A DNA stretch of 64,000 nt from Parcubacteria group bacterium Gr01-1014_30. Lineage in GTDB: Bacteria > Patescibacteriota > Minisyncoccia > Minisyncoccales > 2-12-FULL-40-12. Below are positions 2,355 through 46,717 of this stretch, piece by piece (the first letter of the stretch is position 1; every line of letters starts with the position of its first letter). The translations under genes were made by a program, and so were the position numbers. The stretch is from positions 89,983 through 153,982 of the forward strand of contig VMFS01000003.1 in NCBI GenBank assembly GCA_007376185.1. Direction: 5' to 3'. Below the pieces are notes generated by a model, which was given only the letters and a program-made list of their open reading frames with translations, ran no database searches and had not been told where the DNA came from.

Positions 2355-3320
2355 CTAAAGGTTTCTCAGCTTTCGCATAAGAGCGAAAACGTCTGCCTGA
2401 CGGTTGTCTGATTGCAAAAGAACTATGGCAAAGGGCTCTTCTTTAACCAAAAACACTCCTGCGAAAGTTTGTTTAGCTTTTAACAAATACCCCGTTTTTC
2501 CGCCTACAAAAGCCGAAAGGGGATAGAAATTATTCACGTTCTGAAACTTGAGCTGATTTCCGTTTCTATCTGGCAGCCAAAAGTCGTTGTTTTTCGTGAT
2601 TTCTAGAATTTCAGGATAGCTTTTGTAAATATAAGTCACGAGCTTGGCGAGGTCAGCCGAGGTTGAGACGTTGTCGGCGCTCAAGCCACTGGAGTCATAA
2701 AAAACGGTATTTGCCATTCCAAGGTCTTTAGCTTTTTGGTTCATTTTCTCAACGAACTCTTGCTTTCCCAGAAGGTAAGTCAGGGCTTCTGCAGCGTCGT
2801 TTGACGACTGAATCAGAGAGGCCTTCAAAAGATTTTCCGCGCTTACTTTTAAACCCGGATACAGCGAAGGGCTCCAACCTAAGGGCTTGAGCATTTGGGC
2901 GGTTAAGGTTATTTTCTGTTCATAGAGGCCATTTTCTTGCGATATTAAGGCCGTCATCAGCTTTGTTACGGAAGCTACGGGCAAGGGTTGGTTTGGTTTT
3001 TTTTGTGCTAAAACCGAGTTGTCGGAAAGACGAACCGCGATATACGAGGATGCGCCCACTTCCTGCCGAGCCTGCATGTTCAAAAGCAGCGATTGGAGGA
3101 GTTGTACTTCAAATTTCAAAATTTCTATTTGACGTTGCAACGTTTGTACTGTCAACCCCGTTAGAAAGTAATTTTCCAAACCAGTGAAAACAATATTTGT
3201 TTTATTGGGATGGTGATGCGAGCTTTCTAACGGGGTTGACGCTTGAACCATCCCCGTGTTAAAATGAAAGAGTGACAGTATAGCTAAAGATAGCAAGGTA
3301 AACTGGATTTTCTGTTTCAT
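2355..3320 (-). CDS. D-alanyl-D-alanine carboxypeptidase (peptidase S11, PBP5-like)
   Basis: SxxK (SVTKLMT), SxN (SSNDAA) and KTG (GGKTGY) motifs. N-terminal signal peptide. Confidence 0.85.
   Translation of the reverse strand: MKQKIQFTLLSLAILSLFHFNTGMVQASTPLESSHHHPNKTNIVFTGLENYFLTGLTVQTLQRQIEILKFEVQLLQSLLLNMQARQEVGASSYIAVRLSDNSVLAQKKPNQPLPVASVTKLMTALISQENGLYEQKITLTAQMLKPLGWSPSLYPGLKVSAENLLKASLIQSSNDAAEALTYLLGKQEFVEKMNQKAKDLGMANTVFYDSSGLSADNVSTSADLAKLVTYIYKSYPEILEITKNNDFWLPDRNGNQLKFQNVNNFYPLSAFVGGKTGYLLKAKQTFAGVFLVKEEPFAIVLLQSDNRQADVFALMRKLRNL
3156..3235. repeat. Palindromic element, family 1 (CCCCGTTAGAAAG...CTTTCTAACGGGG), inside the peptidase CDS
   Basis: 18-nt inverted arms at 3151-3168 and 3223-3240. 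Same termini occur at 34025-34134 and 44046-44128. Confidence 0.7.
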
Positions 3321-14455: not shown

Positions 14456-15613
14456 ATGAAGAAAAAAATATACCTGGATTACGCTGCCACCACTCCGGTT
14501 GACCCGAAGGTTCAAAGGGCAATGATACCTTATTTGACACGGAGGTTTGGCAACACGATGTCTTTGCACTCTTTGGGCCAGGAAGCCAAAGTTGCTTTAG
14601 AGCAGAGCCGTTCAGAAATAGCAAGCATGCTTGGCGTCAGAAGCCCTCAAATAATCTTTACAAGTTCTGCCACAGAGAGCAATAATTTGGCTTTGAAGGG
14701 GGTCGCCTTGGCACGCCGTAGCCTTGGCGAAGGCGGCCATATCATTATTTCGTCAATTGAGCACGAGTGCGTTTTGGAATCGGCGGTTTGGTTAGAGAAG
14801 CAAGGATTTGAGATAACGCGACTCAAAGTTGATAAGTTTGGTTTTATTGACTTGCAAGAACTGGAAAGCGCCATTAGAAAAGACACGATTTTGGTTTCAG
14901 TAATTCACGCCAACAACGAAACAGGCGTTATTCAGCCTATCGCCCAAATCGGTAAAATATGCAGAGAAAAAGGAGTTTATTTACATTCAGACGCCTCTCA
15001 AAGTTTCGGCAAAATTCCCATTGACGTCAACAAGACGCAGGTTGACTTGTTGACAGCTTCCTCGCACAAGATTTACGGGCCAAAAGGAGCGGCTCTATTG
15101 TATGTAAGAGAAGGCATAAAACTTGAGCCTTTTCTTCACGGCGGAGGGCATGAGGAAGGTTTGAGGTCGTCAACCGTGAATGTTCCGGCTATAGTGGGGT
15201 TTGCGAAAGCCGCCAAAATTTGCAAAGAAGATATGAAAAAGGAGCTTGGGCGTTTGTCGCTGTTGCGAGAAAAATTTATAGATGGAGTCTTGAACAAAAT
15301 TCCTGAATCTAAACTTAACGGAAGCAAGGATAAATGCCTGCCCAACATCGTTAATTTCACTTTCAAAGGCGTGGAAGGGGAAACGTTGGTTATAAAGCTG
15401 GATTTGATGGGAATATTTGTTTCCACTGGCTCTGCCTGTTCTCTGACCACAATGGAGCCGAGCCACGTTTTGCTGGCAATGGGTTTGAATCCAAGAGACG
15501 CCAGAAGTTCCATAAGGTTTAGCTTGGGCCGTTTCATGACAGAAAAAGACATTGACTATGTTTTGAGAGTTTTGCCAGAAGCGGTAAGAGAGTTGAGGAC
15601 AAAAAGGTATTGA
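14456..15613 (+). CDS. Cysteine desulfurase (IscS/NifS family)
   Basis: IYLDYAATTP, SSHKIYGPKG (PLP Lys) and STGSACS active-site Cys loop. Confidence 0.9.
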   Translation: MKKKIYLDYAATTPVDPKVQRAMIPYLTRRFGNTMSLHSLGQEAKVALEQSRSEIASMLGVRSPQIIFTSSATESNNLALKGVALARRSLGEGGHIIISSIEHECVLESAVWLEKQGFEITRLKVDKFGFIDLQELESAIRKDTILVSVIHANNETGVIQPIAQIGKICREKGVYLHSDASQSFGKIPIDVNKTQVDLLTASSHKIYGPKGAALLYVREGIKLEPFLHGGGHEEGLRSSTVNVPAIVGFAKAAKICKEDMKKELGRLSLLREKFIDGVLNKIPESKLNGSKDKCLPNIVNFTFKGVEGETLVIKLDLMGIFVSTGSACSLTTMEPSHVLLAMGLNPRDARSSIRFSLGRFMTEKDIDYVLRVLPEAVRELRTKRY

Positions 15614-15813
15614 CCCCGCCCTTACTTTGCGATTGCGCTATTTTGCGAAGCGCGAGCGGCGAATAGCCGCATCCCGTTCATGGGCGCAGCGCTTCGCCCG
15701 CTCAAGCGACAGCGCAGAGTATAAGAAGAGATTTATCTCTTCGCCCAACAAGGGGTGCACCTATTCGGTGCGCGCACTGCGCAAAATAATACAAGGGCAA
15801 AGTAAGGGCGGGG
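15614..15813. repeat. 200-nt palindromic element, family 4 (CCCCGCCC termini)
   Basis: Arms CCCCGCCCTTACTTTGC / GCAAAGTAAGGGCGGGG. TTGA on both flanks (15610-15613, 15814-15817). Confidence 0.7.
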
Positions 15814-15849
15814 TTGACAAGATATATTGAAAATGTATATATTTAATAT

Positions 15850-30129: not shown

Positions 30130-30177
30130 CCATCAAATACAAAAAACAAGCGGTCGCTTGTTTTTTGTATTTGATGG
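30130..30177. terminator. Long perfect hairpin, probable bidirectional terminator
   Basis: CCATCAAATACAAAAAACAAGC-GGTC-GCTTGTTTTTTGTATTTGATGG. Confidence 0.6.
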
Positions 30178-32955: not shown

Positions 32956-33102
32956 TTTCTACCCTTTCTTCCGCCTCCGGACATGAGTTACATATATAAT
33001 TTTACGTTGACAAAGAACTCACTTGCCATTTATACAATAGATAAGCATATTTGTCCAGAGCTTACTTGTCTCCCCAAATTTTTTTTGTTAAATTTTAAAA
33101 AT

Positions 33103-35121
33103 ATGTATACGTCAATTCGAAACTACGGCATCATAGGTAATTTAAGGTCGGCGGCTTTGATTTCAAAAGATGGCTCCATTGACTGGCGGCCTTTTCCGCA
33201 TTTGGATTCTCCCGCGGTATTTTCAGCCATACTTGACGACGGAAAAGGCGGTTCTTGGAAAATCGCGCCAGAGGGCCCTTACGAATCGGAGCAGGAATAT
33301 TTGGGCAACACCAACATTTTGGTGACAAGATTCCGAACGAAGCAAGGAGTTGCAGAGTTGACCGATTTTATGCCCGCGCAGCCGGGCAGGGAAATGCCAG
33401 AGATTGAAAAAAACGAAATCAGGCGCCGCGTCTCGTGCGTCAAGGGCCTTTGCCGCTTGCTCGTGGAGTTTGCGCCAAGGTTTGACTGGGGACAAGGCGA
33501 GACCAAACTCGTCCGCACGCAACGCGGCTTAAAAGTAGAGAAAGAAGGCCAAGTGAGAGGAGAACTGCTTTCTCCGGGGGAGTACGCAGTTGAAAACAAC
33601 GTGGGCAGAGCGGAATTGGAATTGCGAGAAGGCCAGGTTGTTTATCTCACTTTTCACTACCACGAAGTTGCAGAGCTCGCCTGGCCCCAAGAACATTACG
33701 AATACGAGCTCACCGAAACCAAGAAATTTTGGTCCGACTGGGTTCACCACTGCGAGATTTCAAAGTGTCCTTTTGCCGGGCCCTGGCACGACTTGGTTGT
33801 GAGGTCTTCTCTAATGCTGAAAATTCTTTTTTTTGAACCGCCCGGCTCCATTGCCGCCTCGGCCACCACCTCGCTCCCGGAAACAATAGGCGGCGTCAGA
33901 AACTGGGACTACAGGTTCTCATGGATACGCGACTCTTCTTTTGTTCTGCAGGCGTTGATTTTGCTTGGTTACAAAAACGAGGCGGCAAAGTACCTGGATT
34001 GGCTTTTGAAAAAATGCTGCTCAACTCCGTTAGAAACCTCACAAACAAGTAGGTATTACCACTCTTCAGAGACGAAGTCGGCTTCGCCTTACAAAAAAGA
34101 TACTACCTTTAGGTCTGGTGGGTTTCTAACGGGGTCAACCGACAACGGTTTTGAGCCAAGCAAGTTCCAGGCCTTATACGGCCTAAGAGGCGAAAAAGAC
34201 CTCTCGGAAAAAGTTCTCGCGCATTTGGAGGGATACAAGGGCTCAAAGCCCGTGAGAGTCGGGAACGAGGCGTTTTTGCAGAATCAGTGGGACATTTACG
34301 GTTCTTTGGCAGATACGGTGTGGAGAATGGTTCGCTTGGACCCTTCTTACGAGCTGGAGCCCGAAACCTGGGGAGTTCTTTTGAAACTTGCAGATTACGT
34401 GTGCCAGATTTGGCGAGAGCCCGACGAAAGCTTGTGGGAAATGCGCGACGGCAAAAAACATTTTGTGTATTCCAAAGTAATGTGCTGGGTGGCTTTGGAC
34501 AGAGTTTTGAAAATAGCTGAACGCTATGGGTTCGCTGACCTTCGATCGTCGAGCCGAAGGCGAGACGGGAGAAGAAACTTGTTTCTGCGACCATCTCACG
34601 CCCAGCGCTTCGCTAGGGCCTTTGAAGGAGAAATTAAGCTGTGGTCTGGCGAAATGGAAAAGATTCACAAAGCAGTTATGAAAAGGGGCTGGTCTGAAAA
34701 GAAGCGCGCCTTTGCGCAGGCCTTTGATTCAGACGACATTGACGCTTCGGTTTTGCTTCTGCCAGCCATGGGTTTTATACAGGGAACTGACGAGCGTATG
34801 ATTTCCACCATTGAAGCGGTTCAAAAAGAGCTGTCAGCTGGCAACGGCTTGCTCTTTCGCTACAAAACACCGGATGGGCTTCCGGGGCAGGAAGGCGCTT
34901 TTTTGCTTTGTTCTTTCTGGCTTGTTGACGCTTTGGCTTTTGCCGGAAAAAGAGAACTCGCCTTAAAAAATCTTGAAAGCGTGGCAAAAATGGCCAACCA
35001 CTTGGGTTTGTATTCTGAAGAAATTGACCCCAAAACAATGGAGTTTTTGGGAAACTTCCCTCAGGCCTACACGCACATTGGCTTAATCAACAGCGTTTTC
35101 TACCTGTCCGGCGCGAGATAA
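33103..35121 (+). CDS. Glycoside hydrolase family 15 (glucoamylase/trehalase-like)
   Basis: YGIIGNLRSAALISKDGSIDW N-terminus. RNWDYRFSWIRDSSF. (alpha/alpha)6 C-terminal motifs. Confidence 0.85.
   Translation: MYTSIRNYGIIGNLRSAALISKDGSIDWRPFPHLDSPAVFSAILDDGKGGSWKIAPEGPYESEQEYLGNTNILVTRFRTKQGVAELTDFMPAQPGREMPEIEKNEIRRRVSCVKGLCRLLVEFAPRFDWGQGETKLVRTQRGLKVEKEGQVRGELLSPGEYAVENNVGRAELELREGQVVYLTFHYHEVAELAWPQEHYEYELTETKKFWSDWVHHCEISKCPFAGPWHDLVVRSSLMLKILFFEPPGSIAASATTSLPETIGGVRNWDYRFSWIRDSSFVLQALILLGYKNEAAKYLDWLLKKCCSTPLETSQTSRYYHSSETKSASPYKKDTTFRSGGFLTGSTDNGFEPSKFQALYGLRGEKDLSEKVLAHLEGYKGSKPVRVGNEAFLQNQWDIYGSLADTVWRMVRLDPSYELEPETWGVLLKLADYVCQIWREPDESLWEMRDGKKHFVYSKVMCWVALDRVLKIAERYGFADLRSSSRRRDGRRNLFLRPSHAQRFARAFEGEIKLWSGEMEKIHKAVMKRGWSEKKRAFAQAFDSDDIDASVLLLPAMGFIQGTDERMISTIEAVQKELSAGNGLLFRYKTPDGLPGQEGAFLLCSFWLVDALAFAGKRELALKNLESVAKMANHLGLYSEEIDPKTMEFLGNFPQAYTHIGLINSVFYLSGAR
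34025..34134. repeat. Palindromic element, family 1, inside the GH15 CDS
   Basis: CTCCGTTAGAAACC...GGTTTCTAACGGGG. TCAA on both flanks (34021-34024, 34135-34138). GGCTTCGCC centre. Confidence 0.7.
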
Positions 35122-43926: not shown

Positions 43927-45525
43927 ATGGCTAAAAAGAGACGAAAAACCGTTAGAAAAAAGAAGACTCGCGCCAACCTGAAGAATAAGGCGAAAAAGAT
44001 AAAACAGCCAAAACCCGCGCTAAAAGAAGCGGTTGATGAGGTTAACCCCGTTAGAAAGAAAATTAGTCATCACAGGATGGGGAAAATGAAACATACGGAG
44101 CGGTTGTCAAGCGAGCTTTCTAACGGGGTTAAAAAGACCAGAATCAGGGTTGTTGGTGTTGGCGGGGGCGCCGGAAACATTGTGTCGGAGCTTGCTTCGC
44201 GGCTAAAGAAAGCGTCTTTCGCTGTTGCCAACACCGACCGCCAGGCGTTAAGGCAGTTGCGTAAAAACGTTTTCACCCTCCAATTTGGTCAAAATCTCAC
44301 TCACGGTTTGGGCACCGGCATGAACGCGGAACTGGCTTGGTCAGCCGCCTTCGAGGAAAAAGAACGTTTAAAAAAACTCTTTGAAGGGTATGATTTGTGC
44401 ATCTTGATATCCTGCCTTGGAGGCGGCACGGGTTCTGGAGCGGCTCCAGTGCTTGCCAATTTAGCCAAGAAGGCAGGCTCTTTGACTTTGGGTGTGTTTA
44501 CTTTGCCTTTTAAGTTTGAGGGAGAGAAAAAAGAAGAGCAGGCAAAAGAAGCTTTGCAGAAACTGAAAGGAAGCGTCAACGCCATAGCTATTTTGCCAAA
44601 CGACAGGATTTTTCAGACGATTGAGAAAAGCACCCCTTTGCAGGAAGCTCTGTCTTTCATAAATAAAAACTTGGCCGACGCGTTGGAAGGATTGATTGAG
44701 ACGATTTATCTTCCCGGATTAATCAACATTGACTTTGCCGACTTGCAGACGATTTTACAGGGTCGGGGCAAAGTTGCCTACTTAAACACTGCAAAAGTGC
44801 AGGGTCCTGGAGGAGCATCCGAAGCGGTAGAGAAAGTTCTTAACTCCCCTTTGTACCCATACACAATAAAAGGCGCCAGACGTGTGCTGTTTAACATTAC
44901 GGGCGGCAGAGAGCTGGCGCTCTCAGACGTTTCTGAAATTTCGCGGCTTATCTTTGAGCAGGTTTTTTCACAAGCCCAGATTATTTTTGGCGTAACCCAA
45001 GGGCAAAAATCTTCAGACTGGCTTAGAGTTTCTCTTTTGGCAACGGGGTGTCAGGCAAAGGGGGTAGTAGAACCCCTGGAGGAGGTTCACTACCTCCCAG
45101 GGATTTTTTCCAAAAGGGGAGGGCGTGGGACGCAGGCCAAAGCGAAGCCAAGAGCGAGAAAGAAAAAGAAACCAAGACCTAGACCAAAGTCCCGTAATAC
45201 AACTCTCGGTGCGCTCCGTCCCGTAGAATCACCCGCAGGGAGCTCTACGGGGTTCCGCGCGAAATCGCCCAAGGGCGCCCGAAAGATGATATACGGGGCA
45301 AAGCCGTCAAAACCGCAAAAGCAAAAGCCGAAACCTAAGGCGAAGCGCAAACCAAAACCCAAACCCAGGAAAATCAAACTCACGGTCGAGGAAGAAAAAG
45401 CTGAGGACAAAGTGAGGAAAAGCGCTTTGCAGGTGAAGGAAGAAAAGGAGGTGGCGGAAAAAGAGTTTCTGGAAAAGGAGAAATTTTGGGAAATCCCGGC
45501 TTTTTTAAGAAAACAAAAGACATAG
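43927..45525 (+). CDS. ftsZ: Cell division protein FtsZ with long basic N- and C-terminal extensions
   Basis: VVGVGGGAGN and GGGTGSGAAPVLA tubulin signature. K/P-rich tail. Confidence 0.9.
   Translation: MAKKRRKTVRKKKTRANLKNKAKKIKQPKPALKEAVDEVNPVRKKISHHRMGKMKHTERLSSELSNGVKKTRIRVVGVGGGAGNIVSELASRLKKASFAVANTDRQALRQLRKNVFTLQFGQNLTHGLGTGMNAELAWSAAFEEKERLKKLFEGYDLCILISCLGGGTGSGAAPVLANLAKKAGSLTLGVFTLPFKFEGEKKEEQAKEALQKLKGSVNAIAILPNDRIFQTIEKSTPLQEALSFINKNLADALEGLIETIYLPGLINIDFADLQTILQGRGKVAYLNTAKVQGPGGASEAVEKVLNSPLYPYTIKGARRVLFNITGGRELALSDVSEISRLIFEQVFSQAQIIFGVTQGQKSSDWLRVSLLATGCQAKGVVEPLEEVHYLPGIFSKRGGRGTQAKAKPRARKKKKPRPRPKSRNTTLGALRPVESPAGSSTGFRAKSPKGARKMIYGAKPSKPQKQKPKPKAKRKPKPKPRKIKLTVEEEKAEDKVRKSALQVKEEKEVAEKEFLEKEKFWEIPAFLRKQKT
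44046..44128. repeat. Palindromic element, family 1, inside the ftsZ N-terminal extension
   Basis: CCCCGTTAGAAAG...CTTTCTAACGGGG. TTAA on both flanks (44042-44045, 44129-44132). Confidence 0.7.
45190..45298. repeat. Palindromic element, family 2, inside the ftsZ C-terminal tail
   Basis: TCCCGTAATACAAC...GATGATATACGGGG. CAAAG on both flanks (45185-45189, 45299-45303). Confidence 0.65.
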
Positions 45526-45526
45526 A

Positions 45527-45660
45527 AGTTAATGGTTTAGCGTTAAGCGTTTAGCGAAGCCCGTATCGTGAGGCGTCAAAGGTTTAGCGCAAAAGACGCT
45601 AAACGTTAAACTCTTAACGAAACGGGTATCGCTAACCCATAAACGCTAAACGAAACTAAC
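45527..45660. repeat. TAAACG/CGTTTAGCG-rich palindromic element, copy 2
   Basis: Shares its blocks with 21078-21210. Fills the whole ftsZ-nnr intergenic space. Confidence 0.6.
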
Positions 45661-46524
45661 ATGAAGGAAGTATCAAAATCAATTCTAAAAGAGATTTACA
45701 AAAAGAGGCCGCCTGACGCCAAAAAGTACGACTATGGTCTTTTAACCGTGATTGGGGGCTCTGACTTTTATTCCGGCTCACCGGCCTTGGCCGGTCTTGC
45801 GGCTTTCCGCGCCGGAGTTGACATGGTAAGGATTATCGCGCCAAAAAGAGCAGCCGACATTATCGCTTCTTTTTCGCCCAACTTGGCTTCATATCCTTTA
45901 AAAGACGGCTTTCTGACAAAAGACCACTTGGCGACCTTATTGACAATGACCGAGTCGGCCAAAGCCGTTTCAAACGGGAGAACCGCCGTGGTTATTGGCG
46001 GCGGTTTGGGGCGTTCTGAAGCCACGCAGGCAGCGATTCTGGAGTTTCTTTCTCAAGTTTCAGTTCCGGTTGTCATTGACGCGGACGCTATTCATGCCTT
46101 GGCCAGAAAACCAGAAGTCGTTTCGGCAAAGCCGTTCTTAATCACTCCCCACACTTACGAGTTTTTCATTTTGACAAAAAGAAAAGTTCGCAAACTGCCG
46201 GATGAAGAAAAGATAAAAGCTGTTCAGGAAGAAGCCGCTCGTTTGGGAACGACTATTTTATTAAAGGGACACGTTGACATAATCTCTGACGGGCAGGACG
46301 TTGCTCAAAACAAAGCAGGCAGTCCTTATTTAACCGTTGGCGGAACCGGCGACACTTTGGCCGGAATTTGCGGGGCTTTGTTGGCGCGCGGCGCAGATCC
46401 TTTTTTGGCCGCGCAAGCAGGCGCCTTTATAAATGGTGCATCGGGCGAGAAAGCCGCCAAAAAACTCGGCGAGTCAATGACCGCCACCGACTTGACTGAA
46501 GCAATCCCGGAAATTATCGCGTGA
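45661..46524 (+). CDS. nnrD: ADP-dependent NAD(P)H-hydrate dehydratase (YjeF C-terminal type)
   Basis: Carbohydrate-kinase fold. GGGLG and GGTGDTLAG motifs. Confidence 0.8.
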   Translation: MKEVSKSILKEIYKKRPPDAKKYDYGLLTVIGGSDFYSGSPALAGLAAFRAGVDMVRIIAPKRAADIIASFSPNLASYPLKDGFLTKDHLATLLTMTESAKAVSNGRTAVVIGGGLGRSEATQAAILEFLSQVSVPVVIDADAIHALARKPEVVSAKPFLITPHTYEFFILTKRKVRKLPDEEKIKAVQEEAARLGTTILLKGHVDIISDGQDVAQNKAGSPYLTVGGTGDTLAGICGALLARGADPFLAAQAGAFINGASGEKAAKKLGESMTATDLTEAIPEIIA

Positions 46525-46638
46525 CCCCCACACCTACTCCACTGAAAATTTGAGGTAACTCAAGTACGTAAGGCGAAGCCGCCTATCGGCTTGATTATTA
46601 TTTATTACCACAAGTCCTCGCAAGAGTAGGTGTGGGGG
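46525..46638. repeat. Palindromic element, family 3
   Basis: CCCCCACACCTACTC...GAGTAGGTGTGGGGG. Starts right after the nnrD stop (GTGA). Its right end abuts TTGACA-17-TATAAT. Confidence 0.7.
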
Positions 46639-46717
46639 TTGACAGGCGCCAGCGATATATATATAATAAAGCTATCGGTTTGCGAATTGCTGTTTAAAAA
46701 AAGAAAAGGAGGAAGCA

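What the first reader, a model, noticed from the sequence alone, without database searches (positions are those of the whole stretch)
3151..3240. Family 1 palindromic element sits in-frame in three unrelated genes
- The same termini (CCCCGTTAGAAAG ... CTTTCTAACGGGG) bound inserts at three sites:
  - 3156-3235, in the PBP5-like peptidase (minus-strand gene);
  - 34025-34134, in the GH15 hydrolase;
  - 44046-44128, in the ftsZ N-terminal extension.
- They are read in different frames (STPLESSHHH... versus NPVRKKISHH...), yet none introduces a stop.
- Two copies have exact 4-bp direct flanks: TTAA/TTAA at 44042/44129 and TCAA/TCAA at 34021/34135.
- Element length plus 4 is divisible by 3 in every case: 80+4, 110+4, 83+4.
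- This is the pattern known from Rickettsia palindromic elements, where selfish palindromes are tolerated inside ORFs.
Basis: partly seen in the sequence, partly recalled or inferred. Interest (0 to 1): 0.6.

Follow-up and report, generated by a model that had tools for sequence, protein, structure and literature searches.

The report
Mobile hairpin element translated inside genes
Three unrelated genes of an uncultured Parcubacteria bacterium each carry an 80-110 base copy of one small mobile DNA hairpin that is read through as extra protein; the same element ends occur in over 100 genomes from many bacterial phyla, and the enzyme that moves it is unknown.

Summary
Three elements share the ends CCCCGTTAGAAAS...STTTCTAACGGGG. 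They sit in an S11 peptidase, a GH15 hydrolase and FtsZ, and each preserves the frame without a stop. Close orthologs lack all three. For GH15 the ortholog DNA shows the empty site, with TCAA once instead of twice.

The Rickettsia-like reading (a selfish palindrome tolerated in ORFs) holds as a description of how it works. The element is not an RPE. It behaves as a miniature inverted-repeat transposable element:
- 13-17 nt terminal inverted repeats with an unrelated interior;
- a 4-bp T-N-N-A target duplication, perfect in 82 of 126 copies.

More than 120 genome stretches carry it, in Patescibacteria, Planctomycetota, Desulfobacterota, Omnitrophota, Nitrospirota and others. Most copies lie outside genes, and about a third sit exactly on a start codon. 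Copies inside genes are almost only frame-preserving, so they are translated rather than spliced out.

The FtsZ copy is not lineage-specific. The same element type at the same site occurs in distant FtsZ orthologs, scattered among orthologs without it.

No transposase was found. A piggyBac/IS1380-like enzyme is an untested lead. I found no description of this family in the held literature. It is a new member of a known kind.

The parts
3156..3235 (.). Copy 1 of the element (80 nt). It lies in the S11 peptidase gene and is read on the minus strand as STPLESSHHHPNKTNIVFTGLENYFLTGL. Flanks are TCAA (3152-3155) and TTGA (3236-3239), which are inverted and extend the palindrome to 18/18.
   Evidence: RNA fold -47.6 kcal/mol, z = -9.2. 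Absent from 9 orthologs; it sits just after the signal peptide.
34025..34134 (.). Copy 2 (110 nt) in the GH15 gene, read as (S)TPLETSQ...GGFLTG. Target duplication TCAA at 34021-34024 and 34135-34138.
   Evidence: Absent from all 7 aligned orthologs. Ortholog DNA (L121) has the single site ...TGTTGC TCAA CCGACAAC. Model residues 309-347 have pLDDT below 50 and form a loop between helices.
44046..44128 (.). Copy 3 (83 nt) in the FtsZ N-terminal extension, read as NPVRKKISHHRMGKMKHTERLSSELSNG. Target duplication TTAA at 44042-44045 and 44129-44132.
   Evidence: Arms 17/17 complementary. Empty site in ortholog L123. Same element type at the same site in L129, L130 and L131.
45219..45251 (.). Related mini-hairpin (CCCGTAGAATCACCCGCAGGGAGCTCTACGGGG) in the FtsZ C-terminal linker, read as RPVESPAGSSTGF. 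Its ends lack one T compared with family 1. No matching 4-bp flanks.
   Evidence: 1 match, 0 expected. Absent from aligned orthologs. Comparable mini forms occur elsewhere (L055, L098, L010, L050; L129 3911-3961).
2355..3320 (-). Host gene 1: S11 D-Ala-D-Ala carboxypeptidase (321 aa).
   Evidence: Pfam PF00768, E = 3.9e-36. 100% identical to a protein of Parcubacteria group bacterium Gr01-1014_30.
33103..35121 (+). Host gene 2: GH15 / trehalase-like hydrolase. The ORF opens at 32983, but orthologs start at the Met at 33103.
   Evidence: Pfam PF00723 and PF19291; alignment A2.
43927..45525 (+). Host gene 3: FtsZ (532 aa).
   Evidence: Pfam PF00091 and PF12327. 100% identical to G01um101430_404.

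Best explanation
These are copies of a non-autonomous cut-and-paste DNA transposon (a MITE).

**Anatomy.** Each end is a 13-17 nt inverted repeat, (C/T)CCCGTTAGAAA(G/T/C). The interior is free to vary, from 4 nt in the smallest hairpins to about 110 nt.

**Insertion.** A transposase supplied from elsewhere makes a 4-bp staggered cut at T-N-N-A targets and leaves that tetranucleotide duplicated.

**Selection afterwards.** In compact genomes, selection removes nearly all insertions inside genes. The survivors meet four conditions:
- element plus duplication is a multiple of 3;
- the host frame is one of the two frames in which the ends have no stop (NPVRK..SNGV or TPLE..FLTG);
- the interior has no stop;
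- the site is a tolerant loop or terminal extension.

Those copies are transcribed and translated as 26-38 extra residues.

**Shown:** insertion, duplication, empty sites, frame filter, wide distribution.
**Inferred:** translation of the insert, and a DDE-type enzyme.
**Unknown:** which transposase moves it.
For: **Ends and duplication**
My estimate of the chance expectation is about 1.
- The 4 bases outside the terminal pair are identical on both sides in 82 of 126 copies. They are inverted in only 3, plus 1 palindromic case.
- The duplicated tetranucleotide starts with T in 83% and ends with A in 88% of copies.

**Empty sites**
- GH15 ortholog L121.
- FtsZ ortholog L123.

**Copy number**
- This genome holds 3 intact copies, 1 mini form and 1 degraded copy in about 81 kb.
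- One Planctomycetaceae locus holds 5 copies in 8 kb.
- DX4.bin27 has identical 92-nt copies on three contigs.

**Frame filter**
- ORFs open for at least 40 codons on both sides occur only when the core length is a multiple of 3: 10 of 51 against 0 of 76.
- Removing the element in silico restores an ORF of at least 60 codons on both sides in 8 of 51 such copies, against 1 of 66 others.
- Each window copy is open only in the host frame.

**Tolerance**
- The GH15 insert is a disordered loop.
- The other two lie in N-terminal non-domain regions.

**Mobility of one subfamily**
- The FtsZ-type element also occurs at the 3' end of a different ORF (L135, L141).

**No RNA family**
- No Rfam family overlaps any copy.
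Against: - **No mobilising enzyme found.**
  - No autonomous element with these ends and no transposase turned up in the 120 loci: an all-against-all ORF comparison found no recurrent family, and the ten largest families were housekeeping by inspection.
  - None was among the 20 window ORFs scanned.
  - None was in the 9 kb on either side of the window.
- **Unusual conservation.** Ends this similar across phyla are unusual for MITEs.
- **FtsZ site.** At the FtsZ site, four lineages keep both 13-nt ends 26/26 identical. Four-fold degenerate sites of the host gene are only 31-43% identical between the window and the other three lineages. Simple neutral decay in place does not predict this.
- **Imperfect duplications.** 35% of copies lack a perfect duplication, including copy 1.
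- **Alternative parse.** A 2-bp duplication with element ends A...T gives the same sequences and cannot be excluded.
- **No expression data.** Translation of the inserts is inferred from the frame filter only.
Confidence: 0.82

Rival explanations
1. A host-useful hairpin. On this view the conserved palindrome is kept because a conserved protein or the RNA structure uses it, for example to control translation at start codons or inside ftsZ. Its spread would be secondary.
For: - Both 13-nt ends are 26/26 identical at the FtsZ site in four lineages whose synonymous sites are near saturation.
- About 43 of 127 copies abut a start codon exactly.
- All three window copies fold as stable hairpins, z = -3.7 to -9.2.
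- In the NPVRK/LSNGV frame, each third codon position of one arm pairs with a first position of the other (read from the sequence). Pairing plus peptide selection would therefore freeze every site.
Against: - The spacing between the arms ranges from 4 to about 110 nt with unrelated sequence.
- Copies occur in any frame, in either orientation, inside and outside genes.
- Most orthologs do without the FtsZ insert, and carriers are scattered among non-carriers.
- Type-2 copies at the same site are decaying.
- The FtsZ-type subfamily also sits at another locus. Selection on the element for its ability to move, plus repeated insertion, therefore explains intact ends.
- No Rfam match.
Confidence: 0.1
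2. REPIN-like elements: two inverted REP sequences moved by a RAYT / IS200-IS605-type tyrosine (Y1) transposase acting on single-stranded hairpins.
For: - The size (30-130 nt), hairpin form and high copy number resemble REPINs.
- The related FtsZ C-terminal variant contains GTAG.
- REP families with a GTAG tag are described in PMC3733652.
Against: - 82 of 126 copies have a variable 4-bp direct duplication, and real empty sites carry it once. Y1 transposition leaves no duplication (established knowledge, not tested here).
- The conserved sequence runs to the very tip of both arms and is not a subterminal hairpin with a 5' tag.
- The duplicated sequence differs between copies in one genome.
- No RAYT-like ORF was noticed in the loci. 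The ten largest recurrent ORF families were housekeeping by inspection. These ORFs were not scanned against Pfam, so this is weak negative evidence.
Confidence: 0.05
3. The segments are removed or skipped during expression, either by intron-like excision from mRNA or by ribosome bypass between the matching duplicated codons, as with the mitochondrial 'byp' elements.
For: - A duplicated tetranucleotide on both sides could give matching take-off and landing codons.
- A strong hairpin is present.
Against: - Excision or bypass needs neither a multiple of 3 nor an open frame, yet in-gene copies are almost only frame-preserving and stop-free.
- Diverged copies at the FtsZ site stay open and keep peptide similarity.
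- No ribozyme or intron family was detected.
Confidence: 0.03
4. An artefact of metagenome assembly or binning, or an ordinary conserved protein motif rather than an insertion.
For: - Nearly all carriers are metagenome-assembled genomes.
- Some taxon labels look unreliable. For example, the L061 element resembles those of a Levyibacteriota genome (L018, L060), yet its record is labelled Gammaproteobacteria.
Against: - The same ends appear in assemblies from many projects and assemblers (by record title). These include a 3.3-Mb complete chromosome (CP113000.1), a 2.97-Mb contig and a 1.24-Mb contig.
- The duplication and the empty sites are biological signatures.
- The ends are read in two different frames and also occur outside genes. 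The conservation is therefore at the DNA level, not the protein level.
Confidence: 0.01

Closest known systems
Rickettsia palindromic elements (RPE)
   Same: Short palindromic selfish DNA found inside unrelated protein-coding genes, in frame and without stops, tolerated in non-critical parts of the protein. Summarised in PMC10969869.
   Different: - RPE families are defined by a conserved consensus of about 100-150 bp along the whole element and are confined to Rickettsia and close relatives (PMC10969869 and my own knowledge). Here only about 13-17 nt at each end is conserved.
- A 4-bp T-N-N-A duplication is present here.
- Sizes run from 30 to 130 nt.
- Carriers span many phyla.
- Most copies are outside genes.
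- Sequence homology to RPEs was not tested.
Bacterial MITEs (Correia/CREE, ERIC, RUP, Nezha, Anabaena MITEs)
   Same: Small size, terminal inverted repeats, target duplication, many copies, hairpin transcripts, occasional in-frame fusions with host ORFs (PMC10969869).
   Different: - Known families are each limited to a genus or family and usually share ends with a known IS (my own knowledge).
- This family is found across phyla with near-identical ends.
- It has a T-N-N-A duplication.
- No parent IS has been identified.
piggyBac (eukaryotes) and IS1380 family (prokaryotes)
   Same: - piggyBac duplicates TTAA and its end reads TTAA-CCCTAGAAAGATA (sequence confirmed in piggyBac papers).
- Copy 3 here reads TTAA-CCCCGTTAGAAAG, that is CCC[CGT]TAGAAAG, with a 4-bp T..A duplication.
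- piggyBac transposases pair with IS1380-like ones (PMC5718144).
- IS1380 ends start with CC and give 4-5 bp duplications (recalled from ISfinder summaries, not tested).
   Different: - The target is T-N-N-A, not strictly TTAA. TTAA is 1 of 82 perfect duplications in the genome sample.
- No piggyBac or IS1380 transposase was found.
- The resemblance of the ends is short and was noticed after the fact.
REP/REPIN-RAYT systems
   Same: Short, abundant, hairpin-forming repeats of similar size.
   Different: REPINs are extragenic, leave no target duplication and carry a GTAG or CGTC tag at one end of each REP (PMC3733652). None of this fits here.

Membership tests
MITE (miniature inverted-repeat transposable element) | Small, with no transposase gene of its own | tested here: met
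   Elements are 30-130 nt.
MITE (miniature inverted-repeat transposable element) | Terminal inverted repeats | tested here: met
   Arms of 13-18 nt are perfect in copies 1 and 3. Copy 2 has 2 mismatches on the left end and 1 on the right.
MITE (miniature inverted-repeat transposable element) | Target-site duplication, with an empty site in relatives | tested here: met
   82 of 126 copies have a perfect 4-bp direct repeat. Empty sites are seen in L121 and L123. Copy 1 itself lacks a direct repeat.
MITE (miniature inverted-repeat transposable element) | Several copies per genome, including near-identical ones | tested here: met
   About 5 copies in 81 kb of this genome. Identical 92-nt copies on three contigs of DX4.bin27.
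MITE (miniature inverted-repeat transposable element) | A parent IS with the same ends that supplies the transposase | tested here: inconclusive
   None was found in 0.9 Mb of loci, in the 20 window ORFs scanned or in the window's flanks. Whole carrier genomes could not be searched.
Rickettsia palindromic elements | In-frame, stop-free insertion in unrelated ORFs | tested here: met
Rickettsia palindromic elements | Full-length consensus shared by the copies of a family | tested here: not met
   The interiors of the three copies do not align. Their interiors have no meaningful match in 124 further elements.
Rickettsia palindromic elements | Sequence homology to a described RPE family; host in Rickettsiales | not tested
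   No RPE sequences were available to compare. The host is a Parcubacteria bacterium.
piggyBac / IS1380 superfamily | TTAA (piggyBac) or 4-5 bp (IS1380) duplication | tested here: inconclusive
   The duplication is 4 bp and fits T-N-N-A. TTAA occurs in copy 3 but in only 1 of 82 perfect duplications elsewhere.
piggyBac / IS1380 superfamily | DDE transposase of that superfamily acting on these ends | not testable with these tools
   No candidate protein was obtained.
REPIN / RAYT | Insertion without target duplication; extragenic location | tested here: not met
   A duplication is present. Copies occur inside ORFs.
Introns / translational bypass elements | Removal or skipping makes frame and stops irrelevant | tested here: not met
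   In-gene copies are restricted to frame-preserving, stop-free ones. There are no expression data.

The most novel reading that the evidence does not exclude
The elements are the non-autonomous relatives of an undescribed prokaryotic transposon group related to piggyBac/IS1380. The supporting resemblance is CCC...TAGAAAG ends and a 4-bp T..A duplication. On this reading the group still moves across at least eight phyla of uncultured, mostly anoxic-habitat bacteria and some of their phages. It lands preferentially on start codons and on a few tolerant in-gene sites such as the FtsZ N-terminal junction, and it can be lost precisely. Part of this reading is that the hairpin has been taken over by the host at some sites.
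Probability: 0.2. Interest if true: 0.75.

Novelty: new member of a known kind. Interest (0 to 1): 0.55.

Why it matters
- **Protein variation in tiny genomes.** Small-genome bacteria of the candidate phyla radiation still carry active selfish DNA. That DNA adds new peptide segments to essential proteins such as FtsZ, which is a source of protein length variation in these lineages.
- **Cross-phylum spread.** One set of transposon ends shared across distant phyla points to a widely exchanged, still unidentified transposase. Phages are possible carriers, since one Mu-like phage contig holds two copies.
- **Annotation.** Insertions on start codons and in-frame inserts will distort start-site calls, alignments and domain boundaries in thousands of metagenome-assembled genomes.
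- **A possible tool.** If the enzyme proves piggyBac-like with precise excision, it could be useful as a genetic tool.

Tried and rejected
- **Rfam:** the window and 18 loci gave only tRNA and rRNA.
- **Literature:**
  - A search by the end sequences returned only unrelated primer hits.
  - Keyword searches on MITE, palindromic, candidate phyla radiation, Patescibacteria and Parcubacteria found nothing on this family.
- **Solved structures:** a search with the GH15 protein gave no hit.
- **Hunt for the parent element:**
  - End pairs 160-4000 bp apart with matching duplications turned out to be separate short copies.
  - An all-against-all comparison of 643 ORFs from the loci gave no recurrent family beyond housekeeping genes.
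  - The DNA between two inverted copies in L007 holds an ordinary gene.
  - Pfam found no transposase in 20 window ORFs.
  - The called genes 9 kb either side of the window include no transposase.
- **Plasmid collection:** no match.
- **Viral contigs:** only 3 matches. One contig is a Mu-like phage. Its MuA transposase is not the expected mobiliser, because Mu makes 5-bp duplications (my own knowledge).
- **Integron attC sites:** rejected by inspection, because the order of the core motifs is reversed.
- **6-bp duplication:** rejected. All 6 bases match in only 17 of 126 copies, against 82 for the central 4.
- **Leader-peptide coupling at start codons:** only weakly supported. In 7 of about 14 cases the leader stays open up to the TAA in the right arm.
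Full report
**1. The observation**

The three sites are as described. CCCCGTTAGAAAG and its reverse complement bound 3156-3235 and 44046-44128 exactly. At 34025-34134 the left end has 2 mismatches and the right end has 1. With up to 2 mismatches the 13-mer occurs 7 times in the window against 1.9 expected, and none of 100 shuffles reaches 7.

The host ORFs are:
- a Peptidase_S11 protein at 2355-3320, minus strand;
- a Glyco_hydro_15 protein at 32983-35121;
- FtsZ at 43927-45525.

Copies 1 and 2 are read as TPLE...FLTG and copy 3 as NPVRK...LSNGV. The flanks TCAA/TCAA and TTAA/TTAA are exact. Copy 1 has TCAA/TTGA, an inverted pair. Each length plus 4 is a multiple of 3.

Each copy is open in only one of its six frame and orientation combinations, and that one is the host frame. 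The chance of three frame-preserving, stop-free inserts is about 5e-4. All three fold as long hairpins. Only about 17 nt at each end is shared, and the interiors do not align.

**2. They are insertions**

The window is from Parcubacteria group bacterium Gr01-1014_30, on a 180,739-bp contig.

- **GH15.** All seven aligned orthologs lack the 38 residues. These include one that is 74% identical by BLASTP (82% in the alignment). They read CCST-DNGF where the window reads CCST[PLE...LTGST]DNGF. The closest ortholog's DNA has ...TGTTGC TCAA CCGACAAC. That is the same site with TCAA once.
- **GH15 structure.** An AlphaFold model (mean pLDDT 85, pTM 0.88) places the insert at residues 309-347. These have pLDDT below 50 and form an unstructured loop between two helices.
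- **FtsZ.** The insert lies just before the conserved KKTRIRV. The closest orthologs lack it, and L123 shows the empty site CAAG TAAA AAAGACC.
- **Peptidase.** The insert follows the signal peptide directly, and nine orthologs lack it.

**3. The family is far wider than this genome**

I scanned one genome per species (185,579 species) for CCCGTTAGAAA, then 45-75 bases, then TTTCTAACGGG. My estimate of the chance expectation is about 1, from 22 specified bases, 31 gap lengths and 596 Gb.

By record title the carriers are roughly:

| Group | Loci |
|---|---|
| Patescibacteria (many classes) | about 55 |
| Desulfobacterota / Thermodesulfobacteriota | about 25 |
| Planctomycetota (including an anammox genome) | about 16 |
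| Omnitrophota | 6 |
| Nitrospirota | 2 |
| Elusimicrobia, WOR-3, KSB1, Stahlbacteria | 1 each |
| Labelled Pseudomonadota | 5 |

Contamination by small contigs cannot explain this. Carriers include a complete 3.3-Mb chromosome (CP113000.1), a 2.97-Mb contig and a 1.24-Mb contig.

**4. Anatomy across 124-130 copies**

- **Terminal pair.** Outside CCCG...CGGG there is a terminal pair, C..G in 80 copies and T..A in 35.
- **Duplication.** Beyond that pair come four bases that are identical on both sides in 82 of 126 copies. They are reverse-complementary in only 3, plus 1 palindromic case. The first of the four is T in 83% and the last is A in 88%. This is a 4-bp T-N-N-A target duplication. A 2-bp duplication with element ends A...T gives identical sequences and cannot be excluded.
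- **Size.** Lengths cluster near 75-78 and 90-97 nt within the searched range. Mini forms that are little more than the two arms also exist, for example CCCCGTTAGAAAGTTCCTTTCTAACGGGG with TCAG on both sides.
- **Internal motif.** Nearly half of the elements carry an internal third copy of the CCCCGT-like motif near one end: 56 of 120 against 19 expected, with a maximum of 32 in 300 shuffles.
- **Desulfobacterota subfamily.** This subfamily of about 92 nt keeps a conserved interior that, by inspection, contains two GC-rich hairpins.
- **RNA families.** No Rfam family matches.

**5. Where copies sit, and what that implies**

Most copies are not in genes.

- **Open frames through the element.** ORFs open for at least 40 codons on both sides occur in 10 of 51 copies whose core length is a multiple of 3. 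They occur in 0 of 76 others.
- **Virtual excision.** Deleting the element plus one duplicate in silico restores an ORF of at least 60 codons on both sides in 8 of 51 copies, against 1 of 66.
- **Inference.** Frame-breaking copies inside genes are nearly absent. That is the result expected if in-gene copies are translated and selection removes the rest. It is not expected if the segment were spliced out or bypassed.
- **Start codons.** About 43 of 127 copies abut the start codon of a long ORF exactly. The terminal A or G plus the duplicated TG re-creates ATG or GTG, and an upstream duplicate start codon is left behind in most cases. Depending on length, that upstream start gives one of three outcomes:
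  - an N-terminal extension;
  - a short leader ending at the TAA in the right arm, 4 nt before the real start (7 cases);
  - a leader that stops earlier.

  I cannot say whether this pattern reflects target preference for RTGAAY-like sequences or simply which insertions survive.

**6. The FtsZ site**

Four FtsZ proteins carry NPVRKK...LSSELSNGV immediately before KKT: the window protein, P0144, P0169 and P0193.

- **Type 1.**
  - All four have an 83-nt element at the same TTAA, in the same orientation. Both 13-nt ends are 26/26 identical, and the 9 nt next to the right end (TCAAGCGAG) are identical too.
  - Between the window copy and the other three, interiors are 61-72% identical, the FtsZ cores are 58-60% identical, and four-fold degenerate sites are 31-43% identical.
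  - Among the other three, interiors are 77-84% identical.
- **Type 2.** A second, shorter type (62 nt, unrelated interior) occupies the same site in two more orthologs, with 1-2 mutations in its ends. A right-end remnant is left in another ortholog.
- **Patchiness.** Every carrier's nearest FtsZ relatives lack the insert.
- **Other loci.** The type-1 interior matches none of 124 other elements. A metagenome scan with its specific right end found 9 places: 7 at the FtsZ site and 2 at the 3' end of a different ORF.

So type 1 is a mobile subfamily, and the FtsZ junction is a site that is hit or kept repeatedly. I could not separate two scenarios:
- repeated insertion of ends kept intact by selection for mobility;
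- one old insertion with many precise losses and in-place constraint on the hairpin.

The ends, the duplication and the empty sites show that it is still the same inserted element.

**7. Mechanism**

The best-supported account is a non-autonomous DNA transposon moved in trans by an enzyme that makes 4-bp staggered cuts. Survival in genes depends on frame, phase, absence of stops and a tolerant site.

I found no enzyme:
- no long element with matching ends;
- no recurrent ORF family in 0.9 Mb of loci, where the ten largest families were housekeeping by inspection;
- no transposase in 20 window ORFs;
- none in the flanking 9 kb on either side;
- no plasmid match.

Three matches in viral contigs include a Mu-like phage contig that carries two copies. 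Phages may therefore ferry the element.

As a lead only, the ends resemble piggyBac: TTAA-CCCTAGAAAGATA against TTAA-CCCCGTTAGAAAG here. piggyBac transposases pair with the prokaryotic IS1380 family (PMC5718144). From ISfinder summaries I recall that IS1380 ends start with CC and give 4-5 bp duplications. This is untested.

**8. Comparison and novelty**

In-frame MITE insertions are known, with the Rickettsia palindromic elements the extreme case (PMC10969869). This element works like them but is not a member. It has no full-length consensus, it has clear inverted-repeat ends and a duplication, and its hosts are different.

It meets four of five MITE criteria. The missing one is the parent IS. 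It does not fit REPIN/RAYT, which leave no duplication and are extragenic (PMC3733652). It does not fit introns or bypass elements either.

I found no description of this family in the held literature. I file it as a new member of a known kind. The unusual features are the cross-phylum spread of near-identical ends, the start-codon insertions and the recurrent FtsZ site.

Noticed in passing
window 34531-34620: A second, unrelated 90-nt in-frame insert in the same GH15 gene (FADLRSSSRRRDGRRNLFLRPSHAQRFARA). It is absent from all aligned orthologs and from the ortholog DNA, and it is disordered in the model (residues 480-499). It does not have the family-1 ends. TTCGCT recurs near both of its ends.
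   Followed up: partly
L001-L120 (43 of about 127 elements), e.g. L018 4316-4391, L032 1181-1256, L060 7195-7270: About a third of family members sit exactly on a start codon. The terminal A or G plus the duplicated TG re-creates ATG or GTG, and a duplicate start codon lies upstream. In 7 cases the upstream reading frame ends at the TAA in the right arm, 4 nt before the real start.
   Followed up: partly
L129 2567-2647, L130 1213-1293, L131 330-410; L122 and L132 (type 2); L133 (remnant): The FtsZ N-terminal junction just before KKT[RK]IRV is occupied by the same 83-nt type in four distant lineages, all with perfectly identical ends. A different 62-nt type occupies it in two others. Carriers are scattered among non-carriers.
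   Followed up: partly
L135 and L141 (JGI contigs Ga0066637_10047529, Ga0066631_10158811): The FtsZ-type subfamily also occurs at the 3' end of a different ORF, read in the same frame (…NPVRKEDIHHKTSKTKPLKPLSSELSNGVRSPW*). A partial extra end (CCCCGTTAA) lies directly upstream.
   Followed up: no
L125/L126 (IMGVR_UViG_3300038429_000794): A Mu-like phage contig (Mu transposase, TniB/AAA protein, terminase-like ORF) carries two copies of the element. A second viral contig with portal and Mu F-like proteins carries one.
   Followed up: partly
L011, L019, L028, L058, L084, L088, L095, L102 and others: A Desulfobacterota subfamily of about 92 nt keeps its interior across several species. By inspection it holds two GC-rich hairpins that share the motif AATGCCCCGCTG, which would give a three-way junction with the terminal stem.
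   Followed up: no
120 distinct elements from L001-L120: An internal third copy of the end motif (CCCCGT-like) lies 10-25 nt from one end in 56 of 120 elements, against 19 expected. This suggests a subterminal binding repeat or nested mini-hairpins.
   Followed up: partly
window 43948-43958: ACCGTTAGAAA, one mismatch from the end motif, lies in the first codons of ftsZ (KTVRKK). It has no partner arm. It may be chance (about 0.5 expected per strand) or a relic.
   Followed up: no
L127 21905-21967 (about 9 kb past the window end): A degraded further copy (CCCGCTAGAAA...TTTCTAACAGG, no matching flanks) lies between a DEAD-box helicase gene and the EF-G gene of the same contig.
   Followed up: partly
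window 15613-15814, 45535-45651, 46524-46639, 30130-30177: Other long inverted repeats that appear from the ORF list to lie between genes: 63-nt arms; 55-nt arms rich in GTTTAGCG directly after ftsZ; 35-nt arms starting ACCCCCACACC; and a perfect 23-nt palindrome. They are unrelated to family 1.
   Followed up: no
window 32983-33102: The GH15 ORF is open for 40 codons upstream of the Met at which seven of the eight aligned orthologs start (one has a 2-residue N-terminal extension). The longer start is probably not used.
   Followed up: partly
L129 3911-3961: P0144's FtsZ also has a mini copy in its C-terminal linker (SPVRKVTVRKGMTEFSNGV). This parallels the window's mini variant at 45219-45251.
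   Followed up: no
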